DNA of 64,000 nucleotides from a virus (taxonomy: Duplodnaviria; Heunggongvirae; Uroviricota; Caudoviricetes), in the IMG/VR virus record IMGVR_UViG_2855308460_000004; one strand, 5' to 3'. The translations under genes and the position numbers were made by a program. Positions 942-16,984 of the stretch are shown here, one piece after another. The notes beneath the pieces were generated by a model. That model saw only the letters and a list, made by a program, of their open reading frames with translations, had not been told where the DNA came from and did no database searches. Numbering within the stretch: the first letter of the stretch is position 1; each line of letters starts with the position of its first letter.

Positions 942-945
942 TTTT

Positions 946-2046: not shown

Positions 2047-2048
2047 TT

Positions 2049-2215: not shown

Positions 2216-2345
2216 AAAATTAATATGTTCCTATGCGAAATAATAATATGGAGTCATGACCATAGGATTATATTCATCACTTTTTCATGTGCAAAAAGTA
2301 GAGAGCGATTTGCGAGAACTGGTGCAAGGCCAGACACGAACCCAT

Positions 2346-2416
2346 GCAGATGTAGTTTAACGGAAAAACGCTGTTTTGCCATAGCAGAGTTGAGGGTTCG
2401 ATTCCCTTCATTTGCT
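2346..2416 (+). tRNA. tRNA-Gly (GCC)
   Basis: D-stem gttt/aaac, anticodon arm ctgtt-ttGCCat-agcag, T-arm gaggg-ttcgatt-ccctt. Confidence 0.75.
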
Positions 2417-2421
2417 TCAAA

Positions 2422-2442
2422 CATCCGGCTCATAACCGGATC
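2422..2442 (+). pseudogene. Isolated anticodon-arm-like hairpin (tccgg-ctCATaa-ccgga); possible tRNA-Met remnant
   Basis: 5-bp stem with a 7-nt loop carrying CAT; no D- or T-arm nearby. Confidence 0.3.
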
Positions 2443-2459
2443 TAAAATGTTTTTCTTAT

Positions 2460-2533
2460 ATCAGTATAGCTCAGCAGGCAAGAGCACCAGACTCATACCC
2501 TGGAGGCCGCTGGTTCGATTCCAGCTACTGATA
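2460..2533 (+). tRNA. tRNA-Met/Ile2 (CAT)
   Basis: Perfect acceptor atcagta/tactgat, anticodon loop ctCATac. Confidence 0.7.
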
Positions 2534-2534
2534 T

Positions 2535-2606
2535 TACGGTGTAGTTCAACGGATAGAACATAGGTTTCCTAGACCTACAATATGGGTTCGATTCCCATCA
2601 TCGTAA
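2535..2606 (+). tRNA. tRNA-Arg (CCT)
   Basis: Anticodon arm taggt-ttCCTag-accta. Confidence 0.75.
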
Positions 2607-2608
2607 CT

Positions 2609-2682
2609 GTGGCCGTGGCTCAATTGGTACAGCAGCGGATTGTGGCTCCGCCATTTTGCGGGTTCAACTCCCGTCGGTCACC
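2609..2682 (+). tRNA. tRNA-His (GTG)
   Basis: Anticodon arm gcgga-ttGTGgc-tccgc, acceptor gtggccg/cggtcac. Confidence 0.7.
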
Positions 2683-2734: not shown

Positions 2735-3016
2735 ATGGAGTATTATAAAGGAATTACGGAGAAGGATAAACCAATTAATGGAGGATCTTTTGTTACTAAA
2801 ACAGGAATGGCAAATGAAGACCTTAATTTCTGTCCGATTGAAATGGAGGATGGGAATGAATATTGTTTTGGCTTTGTTGAAACCAAAAGTACAAATAGAA
2901 AAGATAAAAATCAATTACATATAGAGAATATAGATGGATGCAGACATTTAGTAGATGCGGATTCTGTAGATGATGTGTTGGTTATAGTCTGTGCATTAGC
3001 ATCTTTTAGACAATAG
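2735..3016 (+). CDS. Hypothetical protein (93 aa)
   Basis: ORF only. Confidence 0.3.
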   Translation: MEYYKGITEKDKPINGGSFVTKTGMANEDLNFCPIEMEDGNEYCFGFVETKSTNRKDKNQLHIENIDGCRHLVDADSVDDVLVIVCALASFRQ

Positions 3017-3125
3017 ACGAAGAATCCTCGTGACTTAAGTCATGAGATGAATTCGTTATGTATTAATTATAGATATTTGGTTGACAACATCATCTTTTTC
3101 ATCATCATATATATGGAGGTGAAAT

Positions 3126-4370
3126 ATGCTATTATCAAAAAGAACAACGATCCACGTATCTGAACACCAAGCAAATATTTTGAACCATATGAATTATGCA
3201 GCCAGTAAGTTATGGAATGTATGCAATTATGAGAAACGAAATTATAAGACTTTGGGCATTCCATATCCAAATTGGTACAATCAGAAATCAAGGCTAAAGG
3301 ATAATATCTGGTTTAAGTCGCTTCCATCCCAAACAGCTCAGGAAATCTGCAACCAGATTGATCAGGCTTTTAAAAGCTACTATAAGCTATTAAAAACAGG
3401 TGGAATCAAGTCTCCAAAACCACCTAAATTCAAGCAGGAAGGGATTCCAATTACTTATATGCAGAATGGGATTGTACATAATAAGAAATCTGCACAGATC
3501 CGGCTAAGTATTCCAAAGAATTTAAAGGTACATATGGCAGAACGGTTTGATGTCCATGATAACTATCTATTCCTGGAAAATAAAGTTTTCCAGGACATGG
3601 AAAACATCAAACAGATCAAGCTATATCCACCTGTAAATGGAGAACTACTGATGATTGTTATCTATGAGATTCCAGAGGTTGGCTGGCTTCCAGATAATAG
3701 CCATTATCTGTCCATTGACTTAGGAATCGAGAACCTGATGACCTGCTATGATAGTTTGGGTAACAGTTTTATTGTTGGAAATAGCTACTTGGAAGTTTCG
3801 CATTACTTTAACAAAAAAATTGCACACTATCAGTCCATATCAGACAGTCAGCAAGTGTCAAAAGGAACTAAGTATCCAAAATCTTCCAAACGCGTTCTGA
3901 AGCTCTATAAAAAGAAGCACAACAGTATTAAAGATGTCCTCCACAAATCAACAAAATATATTGTTGATTATTGTTTGGAACATCATATCTATACAGTAAT
4001 TATCGGTGATATAAAACATATCAGGGACAACAATAGTTTGGGTTCTAAAACAAATCAGGTGTTTCATGCCTGGCCATTTCGTGAAATATATTTGATGTTG
4101 GAATATAAATTAAAGCAGCATGGAATTCGCTTAACAAGGATAAAAGAATCCTATTCCAGTCAATGTAGTCCATTATCAAAAGAAGTTAGTAAACGATATG
4201 CAAATAAGTCGAATCGAATAAAAAGAGGCTTATATAAAGAAGCCGGACATATATGGAATACCGATGCGGTAGGCGCTTATAATATCATGAGACTATACTT
4301 TAAACAGATAGGTCGAGGCAAACAGATTTCTCATCAAAACCTAGGAAGTCCGATAAAAGTAACTGTGTAA
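3126..4370 (+). CDS. tnpB: IS605/IS1341-family TnpB-like (OrfB) protein, 414 aa; RuvC-II Glu and zinc finger look degenerate
   Basis: TnpB hallmarks are visible: RuvC-I SIDLGIENL and RuvC-III NTDAVGAYNI. Where the RuvC-II motif (IxEDL) is expected the sequence reads VIIGDIKH. The C-terminal CxxC…CxxC is reduced to a single Cys. Confidence 0.7.
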   Translation: MLLSKRTTIHVSEHQANILNHMNYAASKLWNVCNYEKRNYKTLGIPYPNWYNQKSRLKDNIWFKSLPSQTAQEICNQIDQAFKSYYKLLKTGGIKSPKPPKFKQEGIPITYMQNGIVHNKKSAQIRLSIPKNLKVHMAERFDVHDNYLFLENKVFQDMENIKQIKLYPPVNGELLMIVIYEIPEVGWLPDNSHYLSIDLGIENLMTCYDSLGNSFIVGNSYLEVSHYFNKKIAHYQSISDSQQVSKGTKYPKSSKRVLKLYKKKHNSIKDVLHKSTKYIVDYCLEHHIYTVIIGDIKHIRDNNSLGSKTNQVFHAWPFREIYLMLEYKLKQHGIRLTRIKESYSSQCSPLSKEVSKRYANKSNRIKRGLYKEAGHIWNTDAVGAYNIMRLYFKQIGRGKQISHQNLGSPIKVTV

Positions 4371-4810
4371 CGAAAGTAGCAGTATTGCTGGCATGAACCC
4401 AGTCTAAGGTAACTGTACCTGCAGTGGCTTAGAAGCTTATGACTTTAGTCACGAGTAGTTCACACGATAATGATTCTAGAGTCTACAATATTTTGGCACG
4501 GTGTAATGATGTGGTATTACTTCCTCATTCTACACGTGTGTCGAATAGGCCATTATGGATGGCACCTAGAAATAAAGGCCAACATTTTGGTTTTGGACAA
4601 TCTGAGGTATGGTACGCAACGGATGATAAAGCGTGCAAGTACGCATATCTTAATAGGATTGTTAATCAAATCCAGAATTATAATGGAGATAATTGGTTAT
4701 ATAAATAAGATATCACAATAATATAAAAAATAATCCTTATATTTTTCAATCTTATTATAATCTCTCATATTAATTGTAATTGGAAATTCGGATAATGAAG
4801 GAGCCAAAAC

Positions 4811-5521
4811 ATGAGATATAGAGGAAGTAAAATAATGAGATTTCGTGAAGGGATTTGTATTAATTGCAAACATGAATTGCAAATAGATACAAATAAAATA
4901 ACATCAACATGTCCTTTTTGTGGTATGTCCTATGATGTAATAAAAACAATCGACGGAAAGAATCAATTATTAGAAGAAAAAAAATATGATGAGTTAAATG
5001 AACTATGTACAGTCATTTTAAAAGGGATTTTTGCTACAATCATAGCCATAATAATCGGAAGCTACATGGTTATGGCCTTATCTCCTAAACAGGATGATAA
5101 TAGTACAGAAAAGCCAACAAATATTGTTGAGTCAACCATATCTGAAAACATAGCAGGAAAAGTAGATATTGGTGATAAAGAGAAGAAGGAAATGGATGTA
5201 GTTGAACCAATAGATGGTAAGCACATAGAAAAATCCAAGAAGCTAGATACTACGGAATCACAACAGTCTGCTGATGTTTTTGAATCAGGAGAAAAAACTA
5301 CAATCTCAAATATAGCTGATAATGAAATGATGTTATTATTAGGCAGAATTCTCTCAATGTTAAAATTTATTGCATTCTTTAATTTAGGATTTGGATTGAT
5401 TCGGCTTATAATTGGAATCGTAAATGAAGATATAGAAGGTGTATCAGGAGCAAGTCTCTTTTTGATACTAAATGCATTTATGTTGCTATGCGTATCAGTT
5501 ATAACACCATTTATAACATAA
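4811..5521 (+). CDS. Hypothetical membrane protein with an N-terminal zinc-ribbon (CINC…CPFC) and a C-terminal TM region
   Basis: Good RBS, Cys pairs, hydrophobic C-terminus. Confidence 0.5.
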   Translation: MRYRGSKIMRFREGICINCKHELQIDTNKITSTCPFCGMSYDVIKTIDGKNQLLEEKKYDELNELCTVILKGIFATIIAIIIGSYMVMALSPKQDDNSTEKPTNIVESTISENIAGKVDIGDKEKKEMDVVEPIDGKHIEKSKKLDTTESQQSADVFESGEKTTISNIADNEMMLLLGRILSMLKFIAFFNLGFGLIRLIIGIVNEDIEGVSGASLFLILNAFMLLCVSVITPFIT

Positions 5522-5602
5522 AAGAGGCAAATGCCTCTTTTTATTATATATGAAATTGAGTTCAACTATCAGAATTTTCCATACTATGAATAATATCTTA
5601 TA

Positions 5603-5782
5603 TTATGTACATTGACCATATAATCCAATGCGGTGACCTATTTTATCACACCAACAAGTTTCAGCTATCATTTCGATCACATCTTCTTCAAAGCCTGGAT
5701 GATCCTCCATTTCAGCGTACCCAAACCGATTCATATAAAGTTCCAATTCGTCTTTGATATAAGGACAATTGATACATTCCAT
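5603..5782 (-). CDS. Small Cys-rich protein (59 aa; CINC…CWC…C)
   Basis: Minus-strand ORF with RBS aaagggag; more coherent than the overlapping + ORF 5633..5827. Confidence 0.4.
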   Translation of the reverse strand: MECINCPYIKDELELYMNRFGYAEMEDHPGFEEDVIEMIAETCWCDKIGHRIGLYGQCT

Positions 5783-5918
5783 AATTCATCTCCCTTTCAA
5801 AATTCTTATATTATTAATATGCATTAAAAATATCAAAAAAAACAATAATACTCTTATTTCAAACATAAAAATCCAATCATACTATATGTGATAAAAGAAA
5901 AGAAGGAGAGAAATATAT

Positions 5919-6440
5919 ATGAAATACTATAGTATAAGCGAAATAAAAAATGAGCTATGTAATCATTCAATTACAAGTGATAAGACGGTTTTTAAAAATA
6001 GTATAAAATCCATTAAGGAACAAAGAAAAAGATTTTACTCAATACTTGTACAGTTAGAAGAAGCGTTAGAAAATCGCTTTAAACAAAAAAGTTTCACATA
6101 TAATAGGTTTGATGGGATGATAGCAGAAGTTTCGGAGAACCTAATCAACAATTATGCTTATATTAAAAAAATTATGGATACTTTTGACGATAATGAATAT
6201 AAAAGATTACAAGCATTTCATTTATCTATTCCAAAGGAACTCCAGTATCAAAAATTGGAAATGTATGAGGACATAATTGATAAAATCAGAGATTGCATAA
6301 CCAAAAATGAGAAATTGATTATTCAAATTGAAGGCATCATTCCTGAAATAATCGAACTGAACGATAGAACTGAAGAAATGTCAGAGTCAAGCAAAAAAAT
6401 AGAAGAACTAGTGGAACAACTAAAATTTTATAAACAATAA
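5919..6440 (+). CDS. Hypothetical protein (173 aa, helical/coiled-coil)
   Basis: ORF with RBS aaggagag. Confidence 0.5.
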   Translation: MKYYSISEIKNELCNHSITSDKTVFKNSIKSIKEQRKRFYSILVQLEEALENRFKQKSFTYNRFDGMIAEVSENLINNYAYIKKIMDTFDDNEYKRLQAFHLSIPKELQYQKLEMYEDIIDKIRDCITKNEKLIIQIEGIIPEIIELNDRTEEMSESSKKIEELVEQLKFYKQ

Positions 6441-6524
6441 AATATTTTTACATACTAGTAACAACAACTGAAGTCAGGATATAATATTGTGATTTTAGTT
6501 AATAAAGGAAAGGGAGAACATGAA

Positions 6525-7706
6525 ATGGAAAACTTTAGCCTGGATTTACCAAAGGTAGAGGATATAAAAGAAAATTTGGAAAAAGAATTAAAACTATCAG
6601 ACGAGAGAGAAATTGTGATTTCTGATGCGGCAAGAGAAAAAGCAGACCAGATTCTTCAGGTTGATGCATATGATTTTTCTAATCGTCAGCAGTTAATTAA
6701 AGCAATTGAGACATTTGGCTCAGACTTAATGGAACAGTCAGAAGAAAAAAACGCAATTTTGGGAAAGCGAATCAGTGAATTAAATCGGATGGGTGGAGAG
6801 AGTCAGGCTGTAGCGAATGGCCTTGATAAACTATCAACAGAAGTGGCTGAATTAAATCCGTCTGGGATTGATTTCACAAAAAATGGATTTTTAGGAATCT
6901 TTTTCAATCCTGTAAAGAAATACTTTAAAAAATATGAAACAGCAGATGTTGTAATCGGGAACATAATCGATGCATTGGAAGAAGGCTCCACCATACTTAA
7001 GGATGATAACACAACACTTGAAATTGAAACAACATCAATGAGAAACATATCAAAACAGTTAATTGAAAAAAGAAAACTAGGTCAGGAATTGGATGACTAT
7101 TTAACCATGCAGATAAACAATATGCGTGCAGAGAATGGCGATAATGAAAAGATTAAATTCATCGAAGAAGAAATTCTATTTCCACTAAGACAACGGATGA
7201 TTGATTTTGGCCAGAAACTGGCCGTGAATCAACAGGGTATCATTGCAATGGAAACAACAAAAAGAAATAATTATGAGTTGATTCGATCGGTTGAAAGAGC
7301 CAAATTTGTAACGGTATCTGCATTACGAACAGCAGTAATTGTTGCAGGATCATTATATAACCAGAATCTTGTTATGTCCAAAATAAAGTTAGTTAATGAT
7401 ACAACGAATGATATGATTGCTACGACATCAAAAATGCTGAAAACCCAAGGTGTAGAAATCCAAAAACAAGCCATTGAAACAAATATAGATATGGACACAC
7501 TTAAGCTGGCAATTACCGATGCATTAGAAGCGTTTGAATCTATTAATAGCTACAAGCAGAAAGCATTACCGCAAATGAAACAAACATTAGCGGAATTTGA
7601 CACCCTTGTAACACAAGGGCAAAAAATTGTAGATGGCATTGAATCATCTGAAAACTTAAGATTAGAAATGATGGGAGATACAAAAGGGAAATTGACGGAT
7701 AAATAA
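6525..7706 (+). CDS. TelA-like (toxic anion resistance family) protein
   Basis: ~390-aa all-helical protein whose size and motif pattern are recalled from the TelA/YaaN family. Start chosen at the ATG with RBS gggag. Confidence 0.45.
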   Translation: MENFSLDLPKVEDIKENLEKELKLSDEREIVISDAAREKADQILQVDAYDFSNRQQLIKAIETFGSDLMEQSEEKNAILGKRISELNRMGGESQAVANGLDKLSTEVAELNPSGIDFTKNGFLGIFFNPVKKYFKKYETADVVIGNIIDALEEGSTILKDDNTTLEIETTSMRNISKQLIEKRKLGQELDDYLTMQINNMRAENGDNEKIKFIEEEILFPLRQRMIDFGQKLAVNQQGIIAMETTKRNNYELIRSVERAKFVTVSALRTAVIVAGSLYNQNLVMSKIKLVNDTTNDMIATTSKMLKTQGVEIQKQAIETNIDMDTLKLAITDALEAFESINSYKQKALPQMKQTLAEFDTLVTQGQKIVDGIESSENLRLEMMGDTKGKLTDK

Positions 7707-7726
7707 TACGATAATTCATAATTTAA

Positions 7727-7748
7727 AAAGGCATTCATGCCTTTTTAT
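7727..7748 (+). terminator. Intrinsic terminator
   Basis: aggcat-tc-atgcct + T-run. Confidence 0.6.
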
Positions 7749-7813
7749 TTTTATAAATAAAATCACAACATACTATAAATGAACTATTACATAAAAGGTA
7801 TAAGGAGATCGTA

Positions 7814-9121
7814 ATGAATAAAAGAATTGTAGAAATAAGTGCAGCTGTAATGTTAGCATTGACAACAGTCTTAGCACTTATTGCTTTTATAGGATATAAA
7901 AAGGTAGATCAGACACTGGGATTAATGCAAAGAACAGATAAAGAAGAAATAAAGGAAATGACAAATCCAAATATATCGAATGATGTTGTGTCAACCTTAA
8001 AAGAGAATTGGACAGTCGCATTATTTGGGCTCGATACAAGGGATACAGATGGTCTGTCGGGTGCAAATTCTGATGTAATCATTCTTGCATCTATTAATAA
8101 TAAAACTGGTGATATTAATTTAATTTCTGTATATCGGGATACATGTTTAAAAACTGGTGATAATCGATACCGAAAAGTAAATGAAGCATATGCAATTGGC
8201 GGACCTAAGAAGGCTGTAGAGGTACTAAATGAAAACCTTGATTTGGAAATTGATGACTATGTAGCGGTAAATTGGAAAGCTGTTGCAACAGCAATTAATA
8301 TTTTAGGCGGAGTCGATATTGAAATCACAAAAGATGAATTGAAATATATCAATGGATATATAACAGAAACAGTGAATAGTACAGGAATAGGGTCATATCA
8401 GATACATGAAGCAGGGATGCAGCATTTGGATGGAATTCAAGCAGTTGCATATTCAAGAATCCGATATACAGCAGGAAATGATTATAAGCGGACAGAACGC
8501 CAAAGAACAGTCCTTGCTGCTGTTTTAGAGAAAGCAAAACATTCAGATTGGTCTACGCTTAATAATGTCATAGTGACTGTTTTCCCAATGACATCTTCAT
8601 CCATCGATACAAATGATGTGATTACAGTTGCTATGAATGTCGCTAATTATAAATTAATAAAAACAGGAGGGTTCCCATTTGATGTAATTGAAAAAAGCGT
8701 GGATAAGCAGGATTATGTTTTTCCTGATACGCTCGAAACTAACGTCTCTAAATTACATGAATTTTTATATGGAACAGACGCCTATACTCCTTCAGATAAA
8801 ATATCTTCCATTAGTAATAAAATTGATAATAAGCGCTTAGGAAGTAAAAGGAACATAAGCAGCACAATCCAACAGGAAACAATGCCAACTGAAGTAAATA
8901 ATGAACCAGAAACAGAAGAGGCAATGTCACAGACAGTAGCCATAGTAAGTGATGAAACAGAAGAAAATATGGATAATATGACAGAACCAGAAACCAATAT
9001 AGAACCGGAAGTAGGCCCGGGAATACAAATTTCAACGCCAGAAGAAAAAACAAAAGAAAACTATGGACCAGGATTTGAAATAGAAATAGAGGAAACTGAA
9101 GAAGCCCAAAGCCCTTCATAA
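7814..9121 (+). CDS. LCP (LytR-CpsA-Psr) family protein with an N-terminal TM and acidic C-terminal tail
   Basis: LCP motifs: LFGLDTRDTDG…SDVIILASIN, YRDT, AVNWKAVATAINILGGVDIEI. Confidence 0.75.
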   Translation: MNKRIVEISAAVMLALTTVLALIAFIGYKKVDQTLGLMQRTDKEEIKEMTNPNISNDVVSTLKENWTVALFGLDTRDTDGLSGANSDVIILASINNKTGDINLISVYRDTCLKTGDNRYRKVNEAYAIGGPKKAVEVLNENLDLEIDDYVAVNWKAVATAINILGGVDIEITKDELKYINGYITETVNSTGIGSYQIHEAGMQHLDGIQAVAYSRIRYTAGNDYKRTERQRTVLAAVLEKAKHSDWSTLNNVIVTVFPMTSSSIDTNDVITVAMNVANYKLIKTGGFPFDVIEKSVDKQDYVFPDTLETNVSKLHEFLYGTDAYTPSDKISSISNKIDNKRLGSKRNISSTIQQETMPTEVNNEPETEEAMSQTVAIVSDETEENMDNMTEPETNIEPEVGPGIQISTPEEKTKENYGPGFEIEIEETEEAQSPS

Positions 9122-9230
9122 AATAGCTAGAAAAATCAAAGATAAACCTTAGTGGTTTATCTTTTTTGTAATTTTTGTTTTTCGAAACCAACTTACATAC
9201 TTTAATTATATTAATGTGTGGAGGTGAAGT

Positions 9231-9872
9231 ATGGCTGAACAAGTGAGAATGGTATTTCAACCTATTTTTGATAAAACAATGCAGGTGTTTGCATACGAGG
9301 GATTAATGAGATTTACAGATACAACGATTGTAAAAGTAATAAGTGAGTGCAGGTCATATTCCGACTTTTACGAAATAGAAAAACTGACATTTTTTAAAGC
9401 TTTACAGGAATATCAAAAACGTAACTATAAAGAAAAACTTTTTATTAACTCGTTCCCTCATGTCCATCTAAGCAAAGCTGATCTGTCTGAAATAATTTCT
9501 CATCACAAGGATACATTAAAAAAAGTAGTAATAGAAATACTTGAATATCCAGATTTAGACCAAGCATCAGTCAAGCAAAAAAAAGATGATGTTAGAAATT
9601 ACGAAGTATTATTTGCAATTGATGATTATGGAGTAAATACATTTGAAAATCTGAAATCAATTGCTCCGGCTTATCTAAAGATTGACAGAAGTATTATTTC
9701 TGGGATACATGAGGACAAAGAAAAACAAAATCAGTTGGATAGTATTCTAGAAATTGCAGATAAATATTCATGTCTTACAATTGCCGAAGGAATAGAAACA
9801 GATAATGAGTTATCTTATTTAAAAAATAAGGTTAATTATTTTCAGGGTTTTCTTTTAGGAAAACCAAATTAA
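9231..9872 (+). CDS. Stand-alone EAL-domain protein (c-di-GMP phosphodiesterase-like), 213 aa
   Basis: YEGLMR (EAL motif), DDYGVN (DDFGTG), LKIDRS, AEGIET, FQGFLLGKP. Confidence 0.7.
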   Translation: MAEQVRMVFQPIFDKTMQVFAYEGLMRFTDTTIVKVISECRSYSDFYEIEKLTFFKALQEYQKRNYKEKLFINSFPHVHLSKADLSEIISHHKDTLKKVVIEILEYPDLDQASVKQKKDDVRNYEVLFAIDDYGVNTFENLKSIAPAYLKIDRSIISGIHEDKEKQNQLDSILEIADKYSCLTIAEGIETDNELSYLKNKVNYFQGFLLGKPN

Positions 9873-9951
9873 AAAGGCCATCAGGCCTTTTATTTATTAA
9901 TAATTATAGACATTATATTACAGAATAAATAAAGATAAAGGAGAAAATATT

Positions 9952-10707
9952 ATGTCAGTTGTACTCAATACAAAAAAAGAATTGTTTTTAGGGAAAAGAC
10001 CTTTTAAGTCAAGAAAGATGGATAAAGATGAATTTGCTAGTCTGGCAAAAGAACTGTATGACAAAATAAAAAATCAGTATAAAGATGAATATGAAGACTA
10101 TTTTGAAGAGGATAACAATACTACAGATTCTCAATTATGGGCTATCGATATATTTGTCAACGAATATGATGGAGATGAATTACCAGAGGAACTGAAATTA
10201 TACTATGAGGACTTAAGCGAAGTTATTGGTGCTGGAATGACCATAATGAACTGGGAAGATGAGCCAGGCCAGTTTAGTATTCAGACATTGGATAATGGAT
10301 TCACTTATATGAAAGTATATTCTTCTGTTGGAGATGATGCGTTTAGACCAATGTGTAACATTATCTACTTTAATCAGGATAACAAATTGCGATTGTATGT
10401 CCCATATTGTGGAAACTTAGTATTTGTTGGAGCGGATACACAAATGTGTGTATATGGCGGATATGGAGAAGAAGAACGTGAAATCAAGAAATTATTTGAC
10501 GAAGCAAAAAGTTCTAATGGACCAGCTGAATTAAATATCATGGGAAAAGTTTTTATGTGCTATTATAAGGATGAAACCTTCTATAAGTTATATGGACAGA
10601 AATATGGTATGAATTGTTCAGATGAAGATTTTAATTCTGACGAAGATTTTATTTTTGATGAAGAACTTATGCTTGAAGACATTAAATCAAATGTCATTTT
10701 AGAATAA
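9952..10707 (+). CDS. Hypothetical acidic protein (251 aa)
   Basis: ORF with RBS; D/E-rich. Confidence 0.5.
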   Translation: MSVVLNTKKELFLGKRPFKSRKMDKDEFASLAKELYDKIKNQYKDEYEDYFEEDNNTTDSQLWAIDIFVNEYDGDELPEELKLYYEDLSEVIGAGMTIMNWEDEPGQFSIQTLDNGFTYMKVYSSVGDDAFRPMCNIIYFNQDNKLRLYVPYCGNLVFVGADTQMCVYGGYGEEEREIKKLFDEAKSSNGPAELNIMGKVFMCYYKDETFYKLYGQKYGMNCSDEDFNSDEDFIFDEELMLEDIKSNVILE

Positions 10708-10791
10708 AAGGCTGAAAAGCCTTTTTTTAACTTAGCATTTTTACTCAATCATGTCATACTAACTATAAGAAAAGAGAAAGGTGATTAAAAT

Positions 10792-12114
10792 ATGTTTGTA
10801 TTAATGAAAAATAAAGGGACAAGAAATAAAATATTATTGATTTTAGGATTCATAATATTTGTTCGTATTGGAAGTATTATTCCAATACCTGGGATTAATA
10901 GTGAATATATGAAATCAATCATATCAGGATCCGGATTTCAGTTCTTTAATATGATTACAGGTAACTCTTTTTCCAAGATGTCTCTATTTGCACTAAGTAT
11001 AAGTCCATATATCACAGCGTCAATCATCATCCAATTAATGACTGTAATAATTCCTAAATTAGAAGATTTAAGTAAGGATGGAAAAACAGGACTAGAAAAG
11101 ATTCAAAAAATAACAAATGTTACTGGAATTATAATAGGTTTCATCCAATCTTTTTTCATGGCAGTCAGTTTGGGATCAAAAGGTCTTCTTAATCCATATA
11201 CATGGTGGATGGTTTTGATTGCAACCTGCATCTGGACATTAGGAGCTACTATTTTAATCATAATGGGTGAGAAGATAACGAAACTGGACCTTGGAAATGG
11301 AATATCCTTTATATTATTATTCAATATCCTATCTACATTCCCTGGTGATCTAATGGTTGTCTATGAACGGTTTTCATATGATAGTAAACCAGTTGCAATT
11401 GCTTTAAAACTTTTTTTGGCAATAGCCGTATTCATGGTTTTCCTGGCTGGATGTATCTATTTGAATTTATCTGAAAAAAGAATACAGATAAGATTTTCTA
11501 GAAAGAGCATAAATAATGAGCAAGGAAAAGATTTGCCAATATCATTGAATATCTGTAATGTGATGCCAGTCATTTTTACTGGAAGTATTATAAGCATGGT
11601 TAACATTGCAGCAACTTTCAGCTCCAATCAAATACTATTAACAATTTCAAAATACTTATCACCCAATAATTGGTTTATAATAGGTAGTCTAAAATATACA
11701 TTAGGTTGCATTGTATATATACTGCTTGCCTATTTCTTTGCAAATTTTTATTTAGACATAGCATTTAATGCCACTGAAATTGCACAAAGATTGAAAGCTC
11801 AAGGTGCTACCATTCCAGGAATTAGGCCAGGAAAACCAACATCAGAATTTTTACATACAAATGCGTTTGAAATGATGGTACTAGGGACTGGTTTGATGTT
11901 GTGCATTGTTCTGGGAGCATCTTTGGTGTGTAATATCTTTGGAATAGGTGTTTTGAGTATTGGCGGTACATCTATCCTAATCTGCGTTAATGTAATCATA
12001 GAAACATACAAAAAAATTAAAACAGCTGCCCAAAGTGTAAGGGTTCAGAGTTACTATAAGAAAAAGAATAGCAGAAAGTCATTATTCCAGATGAAAGGAG
12101 TCTATAATGTTTAA
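10792..12114 (+). CDS. secY: SecY preprotein translocase subunit homolog (440 aa), outside any ribosomal-protein operon
   Basis: FVRIGSIIPIPGIN; FALSISPYITASIIIQLMTVI; GKTGLEKIQKITN; GNGISFIL; GIRPGKPTSEFL; GGTSILI — these match SecY signatures across all regions. Confidence 0.85.
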   Translation: MFVLMKNKGTRNKILLILGFIIFVRIGSIIPIPGINSEYMKSIISGSGFQFFNMITGNSFSKMSLFALSISPYITASIIIQLMTVIIPKLEDLSKDGKTGLEKIQKITNVTGIIIGFIQSFFMAVSLGSKGLLNPYTWWMVLIATCIWTLGATILIIMGEKITKLDLGNGISFILLFNILSTFPGDLMVVYERFSYDSKPVAIALKLFLAIAVFMVFLAGCIYLNLSEKRIQIRFSRKSINNEQGKDLPISLNICNVMPVIFTGSIISMVNIAATFSSNQILLTISKYLSPNNWFIIGSLKYTLGCIVYILLAYFFANFYLDIAFNATEIAQRLKAQGATIPGIRPGKPTSEFLHTNAFEMMVLGTGLMLCIVLGASLVCNIFGIGVLSIGGTSILICVNVIIETYKKIKTAAQSVRVQSYYKKKNSRKSLFQMKGVYNV

Positions 12115-12256
12115 TCGCATTCACCAAATGTATATACCAGATAAGATTAAAGTAATTAAAACAATGGTAATGGTAAGCTTGTCTATTTTAATATTGTCAA
12201 GCTTTGTATTTAGTATTGACACACTTATTGCAGGAATATATCAGATGATAATATAA
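12107..12256 (+). CDS. Possible small membrane protein (49 aa) overlapping the secY stop
   Basis: ATG overlaps the secY stop; hydrophobic. Confidence 0.25.
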   Translation: MFNRIHQMYIPDKIKVIKTMVMVSLSILILSSFVFSIDTLIAGIYQMII

Positions 12257-12262
12257 AATAAA

Positions 12263-12283
12263 AAGAAGGCGCAAGCCTTCTTT
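12263..12283. terminator. Bidirectional terminator between secY (+) and clpP (−)
   Basis: gaaggc-gcaa-gccttc flanked by A and T runs. Confidence 0.6.
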
Positions 12284-12878
12284 ATTTTGTTGATACGATT
12301 GTATCTACAATACCATATGCCAATGCTTCATCAGCAGTCAGATAGTTGTCTCTTTCTGTATCTTCACATACCGTGACATAGGGCTTCCCGGTATTCTCAG
12401 ATAAAATTCTGTTTAAACGTTCTTTGGTTTTTTTAATATGGTCAGCGACAATCAGGATTTCGGTTGCCTGGCCTTTTGCACCTCCACTTGGCTGATGAAT
12501 CATTACCTCCGCATTCGGCATAATCATACGTTTGCCTTTTGTACCACCAGCAAGCAGGAATGCTCCCATGCTAGCAGCCATTCCCATACAGATTGTGGAA
12601 ACATCACTTTTGATATATTTCATTGTGTCATAAATAGCCATCCCTGCAGTTACAGACCCACCCGGACTGTTAATGTATAAATAAATATCTTTACCAGGAT
12701 CAACAGAATCCAAAAATAGAAGCTGAGAAGTGATAGAGGCGGCCATTTCATCACAAACTTCTCCAGTTAACATGATGATTCTGTCATTAAGTAATCTTGA
12801 AAAAATATCATATGATCTTTCTCCAGTAGCTGTTCTTTCTATTACATATGGCATTGTAGTCATATTCGTATATCCCAT
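12282..12878 (-). CDS. clpP: ATP-dependent Clp protease proteolytic subunit ClpP
   Basis: Ser-His-Asp motifs [31 protein letters not shown]; bacterial-type length. Confidence 0.9.
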
Positions 12879-13101
12879 AATTATATCTCCTTTTATTCTA
12901 TAAATTTTACATGTTTATAATGTTAAAAAAAAGGACCATATAACTACTAAATTGTATTCTGTGCGTATTACGGTTTGTGACCATCGATAATTTCGAATTA
13001 TATCGGAAGTTAAAATGACATTATATATGCATCAACAGAAATAGATGGAGCATATTTAATGTTTTTATATTTCTGTATTAAAACAAAAGGAGAATTTCAA
13101 T

Positions 13102-13620
13102 ATGAAACTTACTATTATTGGAAAAACTGTTACAATTACGGATGGTATGAGGGAGGCTATTACCGAAAAGCTTTCTAAATGTGATAAATATTTAAAGGAA
13201 AACACGCCGGTAAGAGTAGTTGTCCGAACTGTAAGAGATGACCAAATCATTGAGGTAGCCATTCCAACTGGAAAGAATAAGGAAATCCGAGCAGAACGCA
13301 GAAGTAAGGATCTTTATGAAGCAATTGATTTGGTAGAAGAAGTTCTCAACAGACAGCTTAGGAAACAGAAAGAAAAGAAATTAGATAAGAAACGTATACC
13401 GGTTATGTTTTTAGAAACAGAGCCAGAAGCAGAAATCAAACCGCTTATTATGAAAGAAAAACAGTTTGATTTACAGATGATGACTCCTGAAGAGGCGGTT
13501 GAGGAACTGGAGGCTTTAGACCATGACTTTCATTTATTTATGAATGTGATGGATGGTAGGGTAGGTGTCGTATATAGAAGGAAAGAGGCTGGATACGGGC
13601 TGCTTGCAGCAAATATGTAA
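13102..13620 (+). CDS. hpf: Ribosome hibernation promoting factor (long HPF/RaiA family)
   Basis: MKLTIIGK…ITDGMREAI; N-terminal RaiA fold plus a C-terminal dimerisation domain; 172 aa. Confidence 0.75.
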   Translation: MKLTIIGKTVTITDGMREAITEKLSKCDKYLKENTPVRVVVRTVRDDQIIEVAIPTGKNKEIRAERRSKDLYEAIDLVEEVLNRQLRKQKEKKLDKKRIPVMFLETEPEAEIKPLIMKEKQFDLQMMTPEEAVEELEALDHDFHLFMNVMDGRVGVVYRRKEAGYGLLAANM

Positions 13621-13645
13621 GAGAGGGAAACCTCTCTTTTTGTTT
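13621..13645 (+). terminator. Intrinsic terminator
   Basis: gagagg-gaaa-cctctc + T-run. Confidence 0.6.
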
Positions 13646-13697
13646 TGAGGAATTATCATACATATTATCTCAAAGATGAAAAAATGGAGATAAAATT

Positions 13698-14111
13698 ATG
13701 ATGATAGAGAAATATTTTGAGATGACAAAGAGAGTGGCCATGAACTCTGAATTCAACAGAGTCCATGTTGGATGTATTGCCATTTATAAAGGCAGAATGA
13801 TAGGTTCAGGTTTCAATTCAGAGAAGACACATCCAATGCAGTATCACTATAACCGATATCGGCAGAATGATAATGTGATATCAGCTAATCTGTTGCCAAA
13901 GATTCATGCTGAAATCATGTGCATCAGTAGCATAAAAAACCAGGATATTGATTTTAAAAAGGTTAAGCTATTTATCTATAGAATTAGAAATGACCAGCCT
14001 TTTGGTATTGCAAGGCCATGCGCGGCATGCATGAATGCAATAAAAGATTTAGGAATCAAAAATATATACTATACAACTGATGTGGGTTATGCACATGAAT
14101 ACTTGGCCTGA
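13698..14111 (+). CDS. dCMP/cytidine deaminase-family zinc enzyme (137 aa)
   Basis: HAE…PCAAC zinc-binding signature. Confidence 0.65.
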   Translation: MMIEKYFEMTKRVAMNSEFNRVHVGCIAIYKGRMIGSGFNSEKTHPMQYHYNRYRQNDNVISANLLPKIHAEIMCISSIKNQDIDFKKVKLFIYRIRNDQPFGIARPCAACMNAIKDLGIKNIYYTTDVGYAHEYLA

Positions 14112-14147
14112 ATTATCTTAATAACAAAAAAGAGGCATCTGCCTCTT

Positions 14148-14789
14148 TTATTTTGACTCAAAATACGATTTCAATTTCTCGTTATGATGAAGTAAAGTAA
14201 TCAGTGTTTTATCATTGCCTTTTAACACGGTTTCAACCATATCATACGGAAGAAACTGTAACGCGCACATGGTTTTTTTAATATGATAATCCATATCAAA
14301 ATATGTGCGGATATAATATTCCTGCAGATTTGGAATCTCTCCTATAAACGGCTGACAATCAGGATCTGACATGATTTCTTTTCGTATATCCATTGGACAT
14401 AAAGGATGTATCATGATTTGAGTCCGAACAGCATAATCATCGGGTAATAAAGAATTATTATATACAAGCCTCAGAAAATCACAGGTACAGTCTTTCTTAT
14501 TCTCCACTATTTTATACTTTAAATAAGTCGTTGCTGTTTTTAGGACTTGCTTAATGAGTTCTGGTGGACAGTTTGGAGCGGTTGCAATCGCTAATTGTAT
14601 TTTTTCATTATTGCTATCGACATATGACCACAACTCATGAATGGAAATCTTCCCTAAGGTACAATCTTCATAGAAGGTATCAGAAACAGTTTCTATTTCT
14701 TTAATAAAGCCATATTTCCTTAATCTGTTTTTTATTTTATTAAGGAAAAAATATATATGCAACCTGTATTTTAATCTGCTTAACTTCAT
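14148..14789 (-). CDS. Hypothetical protein (213 aa)
   Basis: ORF flanked by terminators. Confidence 0.5.
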   Translation of the reverse strand: MKLSRLKYRLHIYFFLNKIKNRLRKYGFIKEIETVSDTFYEDCTLGKISIHELWSYVDSNNEKIQLAIATAPNCPPELIKQVLKTATTYLKYKIVENKKDCTCDFLRLVYNNSLLPDDYAVRTQIMIHPLCPMDIRKEIMSDPDCQPFIGEIPNLQEYYIRTYFDMDYHIKKTMCALQFLPYDMVETVLKGNDKTLITLLHHNEKLKSYFESK

Positions 14790-14901
14790 GTTTTCCTCCT
14801 GTTATCTTTGATACTAATAGTATGAAATGAAATGATGTAATATAATTATCAACTTAGATTTATTGACATTATACTACTATAAACAGATGAAAGGAGTAAA
14901 T

Positions 14902-15504
14902 ATGCATAAAGTTATAAATTTAGATGAAACCTTTTATCGGATTTCTAGGAACCAGATAAAGAACCTGCATGGAAAAAGAGAATTTTTACATAGCATCTTG
15001 GTCGATTATACAAGATGGTTTGGAAATATAACAGACGCAACGAGAACTTACCCAGAATGGCAGATTACAGGTAATGATATGGTCAGGAAATATACAAATG
15101 GATACAAGGCTATATACACATTAAAGGATGTTGAATATTTTGATGGGTATGGAAGACGGATTAATCCCAGAGATTATTTACCAGAGGCAATGAGAACCGT
15201 GAAGCTGCAGAATATATATAATCCGACATATTATATCCGAGGAAGAAGGATATCACATCACTATAGATACCGGATGGATCCCGTCCCTTACACCGGGAAG
15301 ATAAAGGGCGGATGTTCAGGAACAAAGAAATTTAGAGGGCTTAAGCGTATTTATCAACAAGCTTCAGACCCTGAATATGGAAAATATATAAGAAAGAAAG
15401 CTTTGCCAGTGGGACCACACTTAACATGGGACTGTGAAGCTTATGAAGAAACAAGGTTACATGAATCTTGGAAAAAACAAAAGAAGCGCAAACAATGGAT
15501 GTAA
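14902..15504 (+). CDS. Hypothetical protein (~200 aa; start at the ATG after RBS aaaggag)
   Basis: ORF with RBS. Confidence 0.5.
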   Translation: MHKVINLDETFYRISRNQIKNLHGKREFLHSILVDYTRWFGNITDATRTYPEWQITGNDMVRKYTNGYKAIYTLKDVEYFDGYGRRINPRDYLPEAMRTVKLQNIYNPTYYIRGRRISHHYRYRMDPVPYTGKIKGGCSGTKKFRGLKRIYQQASDPEYGKYIRKKALPVGPHLTWDCEAYEETRLHESWKKQKKRKQWM

Positions 15505-15526
15505 TTGAGATGAGGAAAGGATTAGT

Positions 15527-15949
15527 ATGGATAGAGAAAAATTAATAGAATATAACGAAATATTAAAGAGACGGGCATTAACGAATACCGAGTGGGATGA
15601 AATAAAAGAGATTATTGAAAGAAACCGGAATAACCAAAGCTTTATATTAGAGGAACTTTGCCCTCTTGTTGCAGTAAGATTCAATGGAGGTCAAAGTTCC
15701 TATGAACTTTTCCTTAAAATAATGTGTAAAGTATTAAATGATGACCCAAAACATATCTTGATTGGGAATGGAATAATTGCAAGAGTTGAAAAGAATGAAC
15801 TTGGAGATGGCGGTGGAGCATATATTGCTTTTGTAATGGGAGACGTTATAATCGGAGCAATGAGTGCCATAGAGGAGTATACAGAATTTATCAATGATAG
15901 ATTGGTATTTAATGAAATTAGAGATCAGATTCTTAGACATTTTTTATAA
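15527..15949 (+). CDS. Hypothetical protein (140 aa)
   Basis: ORF with RBS aggaaagga. Confidence 0.5.
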   Translation: MDREKLIEYNEILKRRALTNTEWDEIKEIIERNRNNQSFILEELCPLVAVRFNGGQSSYELFLKIMCKVLNDDPKHILIGNGIIARVEKNELGDGGGAYIAFVMGDVIIGAMSAIEEYTEFINDRLVFNEIRDQILRHFL

Positions 15950-15970
15950 AAGGCATTCATTGCCTTTTTA
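15949..15970 (+). terminator. Intrinsic terminator
   Basis: aggca-ttcat-tgcct + T-run. Confidence 0.55.
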
Positions 15971-15995
15971 ATTTACCAGGCTGATGGCTTTCTAA

Positions 15996-16092
15996 TAATA
16001 AAAATAAATTTTTTTTTAAAAAAGGTTAACAAAATAGAAAAATCAATCATAATATATATGTAATAAAAAATTACTAAAGCTGTCCATATGTG
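15996..16092 (+). repeat. Copy B of the conserved upstream module with the same promoter (TTAACA 16026–16031, 17-bp spacer, ATAATA 16049–16054)
   Basis: About 90% identical to 21–123. Confidence 0.6.
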
Positions 16093-16458
16093 AGTATCTA
16101 AATAATGGTCATTGAGCATAGATATATCTTATAGAAGAAGTGATTCTTCCATAAGAAAATCGATTGCTGACTACACACCAATAGCCACCATTAAAAAGAT
16201 GCGTTACTTCCTTCATAATAATAAAAAATAACATTATCCAAAGGTGAAATAATAGTACACATGCTTACAGTTAAAAAGAAGAAAGGAGATTAATGAAATG
16301 AGATATCGTTGTCAGTTATTGCAGGTTTGTTTAGAACAATGTACTACTCTTAAAAAACAGGAGTGGTTAGTTTTGAATGCAAAAATTGAATGATGATATC
16401 GAAGTATTATTAATCCATAAAACTATTTATGTATAGATTTCGTGCTATACACAATTAT

Positions 16459-16488: not shown

Positions 16489-16570
16489 GCTCGCATGGCG
16501 GAACAGGAAGACGCATGGGACTTAAAATCCCAGGAAGAAATTCGTGAGGGTTCGATTCCCTCTGTGAGTA
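16489..16570 (+). tRNA. tRNA-Leu (TAA), class II
   Basis: Anticodon arm tggga-ctTAAaa-tccca, long variable arm, T-arm gaggg-ttcgatt-ccctc. Confidence 0.7.
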
Positions 16571-16575
16571 CTGAT

Positions 16576-16647
16576 AGATCGATGGTGTAAATGGCAACAT
16601 GATGGTCTCCAAAACCATTGCTCAGGGTTCGAGTCCCTGTCGGTCTG
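16576..16647 (+). tRNA. tRNA-Trp (CCA)
   Basis: Anticodon arm atggt-ctCCAaa-accat. Confidence 0.8.
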
Positions 16648-16651
16648 TTAT

Positions 16652-16736
16652 ACGGCTATTGCCAAGCGGTAAGGCGGGAGGCTTTGACCCTCTTAAATAT
16701 CAATAGATTTCGCTGGTTCGAATCCAGCTAGCCGTG
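16652..16736 (+). tRNA. Class II-shaped tRNA (Ser-like D-arm, 18-nt variable region) with ambiguous anticodon (loop ctttgac: TTG or shifted TGA)
   Basis: Perfect acceptor acggcta/tagccgt; D-arm gcc-aagcggtaa-ggc; T-arm gctgg-ttcgaat-ccagc. Confidence 0.45.
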
Positions 16737-16763
16737 TTATATAACTACCAAAGTTATAATCCT

Positions 16764-16836: not shown

Positions 16837-16862
16837 TTATATCAAAATAAGGAGATAAAAAA

Positions 16863-16898: not shown

Positions 16899-16906
16899 AA
16901 TTATAC

Positions 16907-16980: not shown

Positions 16981-16984
16981 TTTA

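What the first reader, a model, noticed from the sequence alone, without database searches (positions are those of the whole stretch)
9231..9872. Stand-alone EAL-domain protein
The 213-aa protein contains only an EAL domain, with the catalytic motifs EGL(MR), DDYG, KID, EGIE and QGF. It has no GGDEF or sensor domain. It could lower host c-di-GMP to alter motility or biofilm state, or to interfere with cyclic-nucleotide signalling.
Basis: partly seen in the sequence, partly recalled or inferred. Interest (0 to 1): 0.55.

Follow-up and report, generated by a model that had tools for sequence, protein, structure and literature searches.

The report
Minimal EAL phosphodiesterase on giant element
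A small gene on a half-megabase mobile DNA element of human-gut Clostridia most likely encodes an always-on enzyme that destroys the bacterial signal c-di-GMP; this enzyme type is well known and common on mobile DNA, so the find is solid but fairly ordinary, apart from a shortened catalytic loop.

Summary
Window 9231-9872 (+) is an intact 213-aa ORF with its own RBS, bracketed by two intrinsic terminators. It is one EAL domain and nothing else (Pfam 99 bits against a cut-off of 31; AF2 pLDDT 93.5; TM 0.85 to VcEAL and YahA). All 13 signature residues of active EAL phosphodiesterases are present. They are invariant in homologs down to 30% identity, and dN/dS is 0.06-0.10.

Two features are derived. 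The N-terminal helix is missing. A clade-specific two-residue deletion turns the catalytic DDFGTG loop ("loop 6") into DDYG-VN, so activity is likely but not certain.

The window is 100% identical to a 472-kb, 34%-GC contig of an Enterocloster aldenensis isolate. Relatives reach 562 kb, and IMG/VR calls one viral. About 115 kb examined contains no virion gene and several plasmid-type genes, so "phage" is unproven.

The nearest same-sized EALs sit in Gram-positive conjugative elements. c-di-GMP turnover genes on mobile elements are well documented.

Most likely this is a sensor-less c-di-GMP phosphodiesterase that pushes the carrier cell to a low-c-di-GMP state. It is a new member of a known kind, of modest interest.

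The parts
9138..9172 (+). Intrinsic terminator (11-bp stem, T-run) ending the upstream LCP/LytR gene; it isolates the EAL gene from upstream transcription
   Evidence: 7 terminator-like sites found against 0.4 expected in shuffles; sequence
9220..9226 (+). Ribosome-binding site GGAGGTG, 4 nt before the ATG
   Evidence: sequence read directly
9231..9872 (+). CDS, 213 aa, single EAL domain (NCBI RHB42127.1, Enterocloster aldenensis)
9258..9260 (+). Q10 of FQPI (substrate-binding Gln; RocR Q161 equivalent)
   Evidence: invariant in A1, A2 and A3
9297..9311 (+). E23-G-L-M-R27 = ExLxR motif (metal-binding Glu, phosphate-binding Arg)
9447..9449 (+). N73 (metal ligand) in INSFP
   Evidence: invariant
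9534..9545 (+). E102-I-L-E105 (metal-binding Glu and loop-6-stabilising Glu)
   Evidence: invariant
9621..9653 (+). D131-D132-Y-G-V-N-T-F-E-N-L: catalytic beta5-alpha5 loop ('loop 6'), both Asp kept, but 2 residues shorter than the canonical DDFG(T/A)GYSS
   Evidence: lowest internal pLDDT block, 81
9678..9686 (+). K150-I-D152 (catalytic Lys, substrate-binding Asp)
   Evidence: invariant
9786..9797 (+). E186-G-I-E189 (general base Glu of the EGVE motif)
   Evidence: invariant
9843..9851 (+). Q205-G-F (metal-site Gln)
   Evidence: invariant
9872..9901 (+). Intrinsic terminator (AAAAGGCC-loop-GGCCTTTT plus T-rich tail) directly after the stop codon; the gene is a monocistronic unit

Best explanation
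The gene encodes a cytoplasmic, sensor-less EAL-type phosphodiesterase. It uses a two-metal (Mg2+/Mn2+) centre formed by E23, N73, E102, D131, D132 and K150, with E186 as general base, to open c-di-GMP to linear pGpG. It has no input domain and forms its own transcription unit, so its activity in the cell should be set only by its expression from the element. The carrier is a 0.47-0.56 Mb, 34%-GC extrachromosomal element found with Enterocloster and Hungatella (Lachnospiraceae). Expression would drain the carrier cell's c-di-GMP pool and push it to the low-c-di-GMP programme. In Clostridia that programme means flagella on, and type IV pili, sortase-anchored adhesins and biofilm off.

Shown here: the ORF, domain, fold, full catalytic residue set, purifying selection, conservation as a backbone gene of the element, and composition matching the element.

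Inferred: catalytic activity, the substrate, the physiological consequence, and any benefit to the element (dispersal, surface remodelling or exclusion of competitors).
For: - Domain and fold: Pfam EAL scores 99 bits against a cut-off of 31. AF2 gives pLDDT 93.5 and pTM 0.91. Foldseek top hits are all EAL domains: VcEAL 6ifq/6ij2 TMq 0.84-0.85 and YahA 4lyk 0.85.
- Catalytic residues: all 13 signature residues listed for active EALs (PMC11537037) align with E. coli PdeH, PdeL and a PdeN-type protein. They are Q10, E23, R27, N73, E102, E105, D131, D132, K150, D152, E186, E189 and Q205. They are invariant in 17 homologs down to 30% identity.
- Selection: dN/dS is 0.056-0.097 between three element variants with dS 0.7-1.5, like the ClpP and SecY neighbours.
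- Backbone gene: the LCP-EAL pair is kept in all five related loci, while TelA, orf251 and SecY come and go.
- Composition: GC3 of 0.21 matches the element.
- Expression: the gene has its own RBS and flanking terminators.
- Precedent for activity: sensor-less EAL-only proteins can be strong PDEs. PdeH is the established example, and VcEAL is described as a c-di-GMP/cGAMP-degrading PDE (reference).
- Mobile-element pattern: the closest same-sized EALs (P0099, P0100, P0101; 40-42% identity) all lie in Gram-positive conjugative elements. c-di-GMP turnover genes are enriched on mobile elements (PMC10333796).
- Host biology: c-di-GMP outputs in Clostridia are documented in PMC6200980 and PMC3649979.
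Against: - The catalytic loop DDFG(T/A)GYSS mediates dimerisation-coupled positioning of the two Asp residues and is reported as needed for activity (PMC12943098; PMC5301497). Here it is 2 residues shorter. That is unique to this clade among 149 nearest cluster representatives and about 85 cellular relatives.
- The N-terminal helix present in the 234-aa Lachnospiraceae stand-alone EALs is missing.
- No NCBIfam equivalog cut-off is reached, so the protein is not an ortholog of any characterised PDE.
- No assay, no dimer model and no active-site geometry could be obtained.
- c-di-GMP signalling in Enterocloster itself was not checked.
- No sigma-70-type promoter was detected between 9165 and 9230.
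Confidence: 0.6

Rival explanations
1. The protein binds c-di-GMP but is catalytically weak, or silent on its own (an EAL domain with conserved catalytic residues but a degenerate loop 6). It would act as a c-di-GMP receptor or sponge, or need a partner protein to become active, rather than being a constitutive enzyme.
For: There is a two-residue deletion in the DDFGTG loop, and the N-terminal helix is missing. The literature states that loop 6 and dimerisation are required for full activity. That loop region has the lowest confidence inside the AF2 model (pLDDT 81). From my own knowledge, B. subtilis YkuI keeps the catalytic residues, binds c-di-GMP and shows no activity in vitro; YkuI is among the structural matches.
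Against: Dedicated receptors such as LapD, FimX, YdiV and BvgR have lost catalytic residues. Here all 13 are invariant across very divergent homologs, which is hard to explain without catalysis. The two metal-binding Asp residues flanking the deletion are kept. The deletion has persisted under strong purifying selection.
Confidence: 0.2
2. It is a counter-defence enzyme. It would hydrolyse immune cyclic dinucleotides such as 3'3'-cGAMP or CBASS/STING-type c-di-GMP, protecting the element from abortive-infection systems, rather than reprogramming lifestyle signalling.
For: The best sequence and structure match in the PDB is VcEAL, reported to degrade both c-di-GMP and cGAMP. The jumbo-phage review notes that phosphodiesterases may disrupt nucleotide immune signalling (PMC13282480). 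The element also carries NAD+ salvage genes (NAPRTase and NAD synthase) just upstream.
Against: Identity to VcEAL is only 23-24%, so it says nothing about specificity. There are no PADLOC hits for the gene or its neighbours. No anti-defence genes are recognised next to it. Known anti-CBASS and anti-Pycsar nucleases have other folds (my knowledge). Clostridia use c-di-GMP as a housekeeping signal, which makes c-di-GMP-triggered immunity unlikely in these hosts (inference).
Confidence: 0.1
3. It is an ordinary chromosomal housekeeping PDE of a low-GC bacterium, and the mobile-element framing is an artefact.
For: The neighbours have cellular-type functions: SecY, ClpP, HPF, LCP and signal peptidase. 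No virion genes were found.
Against: The isolate is Enterocloster aldenensis, whose chromosome is near 49% GC (my memory), against 34% here. There are 37 tRNA genes in arrays without rRNA. SecY is not in a ribosomal-protein operon but next to a SecE-like ORF. The region carries TnpB, HNH, RtcB and many ORFs without family matches. A 97%-identical gene sits on an IMG/VR viral contig. The close EAL clade is absent from 185,579 species-representative genomes.
Confidence: 0.03

Closest known systems
E. coli PdeH (YhjH) and V. cholerae VcEAL (PDB 6ifq/6ij2): stand-alone, sensor-less EAL phosphodiesterases
   Same: Single EAL domain with no input domain. Same fold (TMq 0.84-0.85). Same catalytic residues in alignment.
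   Different: Only 19-24% identity. 213 aa against 255-257 aa, with the N-terminal helix missing. The DDFGTG loop is 2 residues shorter. Far below the NCBIfam PdeH-type cut-off (31.8 against 190 bits). Carried by a giant mobile element rather than the chromosome.
Minimal (211-217 aa) EAL proteins of Gram-positive conjugative elements (P0099, P0100, P0101; uncharacterised)
   Same: Same size and same lack of the N-terminal helix. 40-42% identity over the full length, with all catalytic residues. Located on mobile elements.
   Different: They keep a full-length DDxGTGxN loop. They sit in a conserved micro-synteny next to ArdC-N/LPD1 and T4SS genes, which is not the neighbourhood seen here. None has been tested experimentally.
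EAL domains of ~1000-aa sensor-GGDEF-EAL proteins of Clostridia (e.g. the C. difficile 1009-aa protein, L008)
   Same: Highest-scoring cellular relatives (39-41% identity). They group with the element clade in an NJ tree (no support values).
   Different: Those are C-terminal domains of membrane sensor proteins with a canonical loop 6. Here the domain stands alone. This is consistent with capture of a bare domain but is not proven.
234-235-aa stand-alone EAL family of Lachnospiraceae chromosomes
   Same: EAL-only proteins of the same bacterial family, 33-38% identity.
   Different: About 21 residues longer at the N-terminus (extra helix), with a canonical DDFG(S/T/A)GxN loop, and chromosomal.
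Known c-di-GMP turnover genes on mobile elements (Tn21 EAL protein, PvrR on PAPI-1, SXT DGCs, C. perfringens plasmid DGC/PDE pair; Citrobacter phage Chris1 519-aa EAL protein)
   Same: A mobile element carries a c-di-GMP enzyme that can rewire the carrier cell (PMC10333796; Chris1 locus).
   Different: Those proteins mostly have sensor or receiver domains. None is on a half-megabase element. The review notes that few such genes are known on phages (a GGDEF on YuA, a riboswitch on PhiCD119).

Membership tests
EAL domain superfamily (Pfam PF00563) | Match to the EAL profile above the curated gathering score | tested here: met
   99.1 bits against 31.3, E 3.3e-28, profile positions 11-236 of 236
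EAL domain superfamily (Pfam PF00563) | Modified TIM-barrel alpha-beta(beta-alpha)7 fold | tested here: met
   AF2 model pLDDT 93.5 and pTM 0.91. The top 50 Foldseek PDB hits are all EAL domains, TMq up to 0.85. This is a prediction, not a solved structure.
Catalytically active EAL c-di-GMP phosphodiesterases (class I) | All 13 signature residues (Q, E, R, N, E, E, D, D, K, D, E, E, Q; RocR numbering Q161...Q372) | tested here: met
   Q10, E23, R27, N73, E102, E105, D131, D132, K150, D152, E186, E189 and Q205 align with PdeH, PdeL and a PdeN-type protein. They are invariant in 17 homologs. The residue list is from PMC11537037.
Catalytically active EAL c-di-GMP phosphodiesterases (class I) | Canonical loop 6 / beta5-alpha5 loop DDFG(T/A)GYSS | tested here: not met
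   The sequence is DDYG--VNTFENL, with the two residues equivalent to (T/A)G deleted. DD-to-KxD spacing is 19 here, against 21-22 in 137 of 149 nearest representatives.
Catalytically active EAL c-di-GMP phosphodiesterases (class I) | Mg2+/Mn2+-dependent hydrolysis of c-di-GMP to pGpG; homodimerisation | not testable with these tools
   Needs purified protein. No multimer modelling or model coordinates were available.
Degenerate EAL receptors (class III: LapD, FimX, YdiV, BvgR) | Loss of catalytic or metal-binding residues | tested here: not met
   No catalytic residue is lost, so it is not filed here.
Named PDE orthogroups (NCBIfam equivalogs: PRK10551/PdeN-type, RimA, PvrR, PdeH-type PRK11596, and others) | Score above the curated equivalog cut-off | tested here: not met
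   Best scores are 69.6 against 461 bits, 64.1 against 430 and 31.8 against 190.
Phage-encoded gene (tailed phage genome) | Carrier encodes capsid, portal, terminase and tail genes | tested here: inconclusive
   No virion or packaging gene was found in the window plus about 50 kb downstream and about 10 kb upstream, but only about a quarter of the element was seen. A 233-kb relative is in IMG/VR. ParA-like, PcfJ and topoisomerase genes point toward a plasmid.
Known anti-phage defence or counter-defence proteins | Match to PADLOC models, or an anti-CBASS nuclease fold | tested here: not met
   There is no PADLOC hit for the EAL protein or its neighbours, and the fold is EAL.

The most novel reading that the evidence does not exclude
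The half-megabase element is a true megaphage or phage-plasmid, and this minimal EAL is a takeover tool. Its shortened catalytic loop would free it from the dimerisation-coupled control that governs cellular EALs. On expression it would collapse c-di-GMP, and possibly cGAMP. That would remodel the host envelope together with the element's own SecY/SecE, signal peptidase, LCP, flotillin and PspA genes, remove c-di-GMP-dependent surface receptors used by competing phages, or blunt cyclic-dinucleotide immunity. It would be the first characterised phage EAL phosphodiesterase and a naturally deregulated EAL variant.
Probability: 0.12. Interest if true: 0.6.

Novelty: new member of a known kind. Interest (0 to 1): 0.3.

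Why it matters
c-di-GMP sets the motile-versus-attached state, surface proteins and colonisation behaviour in Clostridia. A widespread element, seen on hundreds of human-gut contigs, carries a sensor-less c-di-GMP-degrading enzyme as a conserved backbone gene. If it is active, carriage of the element would change how Enterocloster and Hungatella strains move, adhere and colonise.

The clade-specific deletion in the catalytic loop is a natural experiment on the loop that couples dimerisation to catalysis in EAL enzymes. If the carrier proves to be a phage, this would add a phosphodiesterase to the very short list of c-di-GMP components known on phages. None of this overturns current understanding.

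Tried and rejected
- **Known phage or plasmid.** Megablast of 25 kb against INPHARED found only tRNA and RtcB fragments. PLSDB gave no match.
- **Phage EAL and SecY hits.** Hits in the 'phages' collection are mostly mislabelled bacterial contigs or unverified faecal scaffolds at <=35% identity.
- **Viral structure library (BFVD).** No EAL fold was found.
- **Defence association.** PADLOC gave nothing for the EAL protein, orf251, TelA, LCP, flotillin and others.
- **Riboswitch or other RNA near the gene.** Nothing at the gathering threshold in the window except tRNAs. Nothing at E<=0.5 in 3000-16400.
- **Virion genes.** I walked along IMGVR_UViG_3300039379_000022 and beyond the window end. No virion gene turned up. 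A try with TnpB as a multicopy anchor failed.
- **First reading of the genome hits.** I initially took all genome hits to be stand-alone proteins. This was corrected: 22 of 71 are ~1000-aa multidomain proteins, including the top C. difficile hit.
- **Organism names for the nearest relatives.** None were available.
- **Primary papers on EAL classes and loop 6.** Römling 2009 and Rao 2009 are not held, so I relied on later open papers that summarise them.
- **The 251-aa neighbour as a functional partner.** Rejected, because it is absent from three of five related loci and has no family match.
- **Sigma-70 promoter.** None reached the scan threshold upstream of the gene.

Full report
**1. The observation.** Window 9231-9872 (+) is a 213-aa ORF starting at ATG. 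An in-frame TGA two codons upstream fixes the N-terminus. GGAGGTG lies 4 nt before the start. Intrinsic terminators sit at 9138-9164 (end of the upstream LCP gene) and at 9872-9891, right after the stop codon. The region has seven terminator-like sites against 0.4 expected in shuffles. The gene is therefore its own transcription unit. No consensus sigma-70 promoter was detected, but the element encodes at least one sigma-like protein of its own.

**2. Domain and fold.** Pfam finds only EAL: 99.1 bits against a gathering score of 31.3, with residues 3-212 covering profile positions 11-236 of 236. There is no hydrophobic segment. NCBIfam gives 14 partial hits to characterised phosphodiesterases, all far below their equivalog cut-offs, so the protein is not an ortholog of any named enzyme. 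The best PDB sequence match is the stand-alone V. cholerae VcEAL (6ifq, E 4e-12). An AlphaFold2 model built on 17 homologs is confident (pLDDT 93.5, pTM 0.91). Its 50 best Foldseek matches in the PDB are all EAL domains: VcEAL TMq 0.84-0.85, YahA 0.85, LapD, BifA, PA3825.

**3. Catalytic competence.** Open literature lists 13 residues needed for EAL phosphodiesterase activity. Four contact c-di-GMP, seven build the metal site, one stabilises loop 6 and one is the general base (PMC11537037; PMC12943098). I fetched E. coli PdeH, PdeL and a PdeN-type CSS-EAL protein and aligned them with the window protein and its relatives. All 13 positions are occupied by the expected residue: Q10, E23, R27, N73, E102, E105, D131, D132, K150, D152, E186, E189 and Q205. 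They are invariant in 17 homologs spanning 30-94% identity and in the other minimal EALs.

**4. Two derived features.**
- The protein lacks the roughly 21-residue N-terminal helix found in the 234-235-aa stand-alone EALs of Lachnospiraceae and in the E. coli enzymes.
- The catalytic beta5-alpha5 loop ("loop 6") reads DDYG-VN-TFENL. In every reference and about 85 cellular relatives it reads DDFG(T/S/A)GxN. Two residues are deleted. Among the 149 nearest 50%-identity cluster representatives from an exhaustive search of 1.84 billion proteins, the spacing from DD to KxD is 21-22 in 137. It is 19 only in this clade's own representative. Within the clade, 8 of 10 members carry the deletion, and the two most divergent (P0009, P0010) do not.

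This loop couples dimerisation to placement of the two metal-binding Asp residues and is reported as necessary for full activity (PMC5301497; PMC12943098). In the model it is the least confident internal segment (pLDDT 81). The deletion could deregulate the enzyme or weaken it. Sequence alone cannot decide, and this is the main reason my confidence in activity is 0.6 rather than higher.

**5. Selection and residence.** Orthologs from three diverged element variants (85-88% amino-acid identity, dS 0.7-1.5) give dN/dS of 0.056-0.097, the same range as the neighbouring ClpP, SecY and TelA genes. The LCP-EAL gene pair is present in all five related loci. TelA, the 251-aa ORF and SecY/SecE are variably present. 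The EAL gene has a GC3 of 0.21, at the low end of the element's genes. It is therefore an old, selected backbone gene and not a recent capture.

**6. The carrier.** The window is 100% identical to positions 276,603-340,602 of QSGP01000005.1. This is a 472,371-bp contig of an isolate assembly labelled Enterocloster aldenensis. GC is 34%, and from memory the Enterocloster chromosome is near 49%. An 88% ortholog lies on a 396-kb contig labelled Hungatella hathewayi, and an 85% ortholog on a 282-kb metagenome scaffold. Members of the 90% cluster are seen on hundreds of contigs up to 561,867 bp.

The window carries the following:
- 37-38 tRNA genes in two arrays, with no rRNA
- TnpB and an HNH endonuclease
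- RtcB, and a polynucleotide kinase/phosphatase gene just past the window end
- dCMP deaminase and radical-SAM proteins
- ClpP and HPF
- SecY with a SecE-like ORF, signal peptidase and flotillin
- an OpuA-type transporter, a sigma-like protein and a RecD2/Dda-like helicase

NAD+ salvage genes (NAPRTase and NAD synthase) lie just upstream of the window in the related locus L001.

IMG/VR holds a 233-kb contig with a 97%-identical copy of the window's 780-aa protein. By coordinates, that contig ends before the EAL region, which explains why the IMG/VR scan with the EAL found only <=33% relatives.

I found no capsid, portal, terminase or tail gene in the window, about 10 kb upstream or about 50 kb downstream. 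What turned up instead was a ParA-like ATPase, PcfJ, a topoisomerase, PspA, a P-type ATPase and choline-binding proteins. There is no match in PLSDB or among cultured phages. I therefore call it a giant mobile element of unresolved type. "Phage" is possible but not shown.

**7. Relatives and origin.** The exhaustive search finds 26,340 EAL relatives, but only the element clade exceeds 50% identity. Next come three clades of same-sized minimal EALs (P0099, P0100, P0101; 211-217 aa, 40-42% identity, full-length loop 6). All three lie inside Gram-positive conjugative elements, with PrgI, a VirB4/TraG-type ATPase, a T4SS coupling protein, ArdC-N/LPD1 polyvalent proteins and a giant NlpC/P60 protein. 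They share a micro-synteny.

After them come EAL domains of ~1000-aa sensor-GGDEF-EAL proteins of Clostridia and the 234-aa chromosomal stand-alone family. Of 71 complete ORFs among the top genome hits, 49 are 233-271 aa and 22 are 787-1046 aa. An NJ tree places the element clade with the multidomain group. It has no support values, so I treat capture of a bare domain as a lead only.

**8. What is already known.** c-di-GMP turnover genes on mobile DNA are well documented: the Tn21 EAL protein, PvrR on PAPI-1, the SXT diguanylate cyclases and a DGC/PDE pair on a C. perfringens plasmid. Between 6 and 10% of plasmids carry such genes. On phages few are known: a GGDEF protein on YuA and a riboswitch on PhiCD119 (PMC10333796). 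The temperate Citrobacter phage Chris1 carries a 519-aa EAL protein next to its integrase. One PHROG family of unknown function matches the EAL domain. BFVD holds no EAL fold. The founding huge-phage survey, a jumbo-phage comparative analysis and a 2026 review do not mention EAL genes.

In C. difficile, c-di-GMP represses flagella and induces type IV pili, adhesins and biofilm through riboswitches. PhiCD119-like prophages carry c-di-GMP riboswitches in their lysis modules (PMC6200980 and PMC3649979).

**9. Mechanism and verdict.** The most likely reading (0.6) is a sensor-less c-di-GMP phosphodiesterase whose cellular activity is set by its expression from the element. It would move the carrier cell to the low-c-di-GMP state. 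What the element gains is inferred only: dispersal, surface remodelling alongside its own secretion and envelope genes, or loss of c-di-GMP-dependent receptors used by competitors. The last idea has a parallel in phage N4, which needs a c-di-GMP-dependent glycan receptor in E. coli (PMC8669472, listed).

The rivals are a weakly active or partner-dependent c-di-GMP binder (0.2), a cyclic-dinucleotide counter-defence enzyme (0.1) and an ordinary chromosomal gene (0.03).

The protein is already annotated as "EAL domain-containing protein". Its kind and its presence on mobile DNA are known. What is new is a specific clade with a remodelled catalytic loop on a very large gut element. I rate it a new member of a known kind, with interest 0.3.

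Noticed in passing
window 539-2682 and 16489-19077: There are two dense arrays totalling 37 tRNA genes by ARAGORN. Rfam adds one at 865-941. Together they cover most amino acids, with duplicates and two long calls (Ile-tat 89 nt, Gln 87 nt). No rRNA is nearby. This is typical of huge phages but sits on an element where no virion gene was found.
   Followed up: partly
window 10792-12114 (SecY), 12107-12256 (SecE-like), 60596-61162 (signal peptidase S26): The element encodes its own Sec translocon parts. SecY passes the TIGR00967 cut-off only narrowly (276 against 253.6 bits) and is about 30% identical to cellular SecY. A 49-aa SecE-like ORF overlaps its end, and a type I signal peptidase lies 48 kb away. 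SecY is present in four of five related loci and absent in L001. None of the huge-phage papers I read mentions SecY. This may be more unusual than the EAL gene.
   Followed up: partly
window 6489-9121, 31238-32779, 41225-43916, 47087-47587, 49911-50657; L115 4756-9315: There is a concentration of envelope and membrane-homeostasis genes on the element: TelA, LCP/LytR glycopolymer transferase, flotillin, an OpuA-type ABC transporter, 3D-domain and SLT lytic transglycosylases. Further downstream lie PspA/IM30, a P-type cation ATPase and choline-binding proteins. This suggests the element remodels the carrier's cell surface.
   Followed up: no
window 3126-4370: A TnpB/Cas12f-like gene (PADLOC Cas12f E 2e-20; Pfam OrfB_IS605) is present here and in the identical isolate contig. 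It is absent at this position in the related elements L001 and L002, so it is a recent IS insertion. No close copy was found in IMG/VR.
   Followed up: partly
window 9952-10707: A 251-aa acidic ORF lies between the EAL gene and SecY, with its own terminator at 10706-10725. It has no Pfam, NCBIfam, PHROG or PADLOC match. It is present in the window and L005 but absent in L001-L003, so it is an indel and not a conserved partner of the EAL gene.
   Followed up: partly
window 21208-23915 and just past the window end (L104 11876-13075): An RNA-repair gene set: a His_Phos phosphatase, an R2K ATP-grasp protein and RtcB ligase, plus an AAA_33/Metallophos polynucleotide kinase-phosphatase. This fits defence of the element's large tRNA set against anticodon nucleases.
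   Followed up: no
window 51136-54971; L104 16273-21321: Plasmid-type genes: a 496-aa ParA-like ATPase (weak PHROG and Pfam hits) followed by a 780-aa protein with no family match. Downstream lie a Toprim topoisomerase and a PcfJ-family protein. They argue that the element may replicate and segregate like a plasmid, or be a phage-plasmid.
   Followed up: partly
L111, L113, L114 (metagenome contigs): Minimal 211-217-aa EAL genes recur in Gram-positive conjugative elements in a fixed order: a ~205-aa unknown, the EAL, a ~222-237-aa unknown, then (in L111 and L114) an ArdC-N/LPD1 polyvalent protein. T4SS genes lie nearby in L113 and L114. This looks like an uncharacterised conserved module of such elements.
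   Followed up: partly
L097 (IMGVR_UViG_3300040801_001224, 328 kb): Another very large IMG/VR contig encodes a 658-aa membrane protein with GGDEF and EAL motifs (23% identity to the window protein). c-di-GMP enzymes may therefore occur on other huge putative phages.
   Followed up: no
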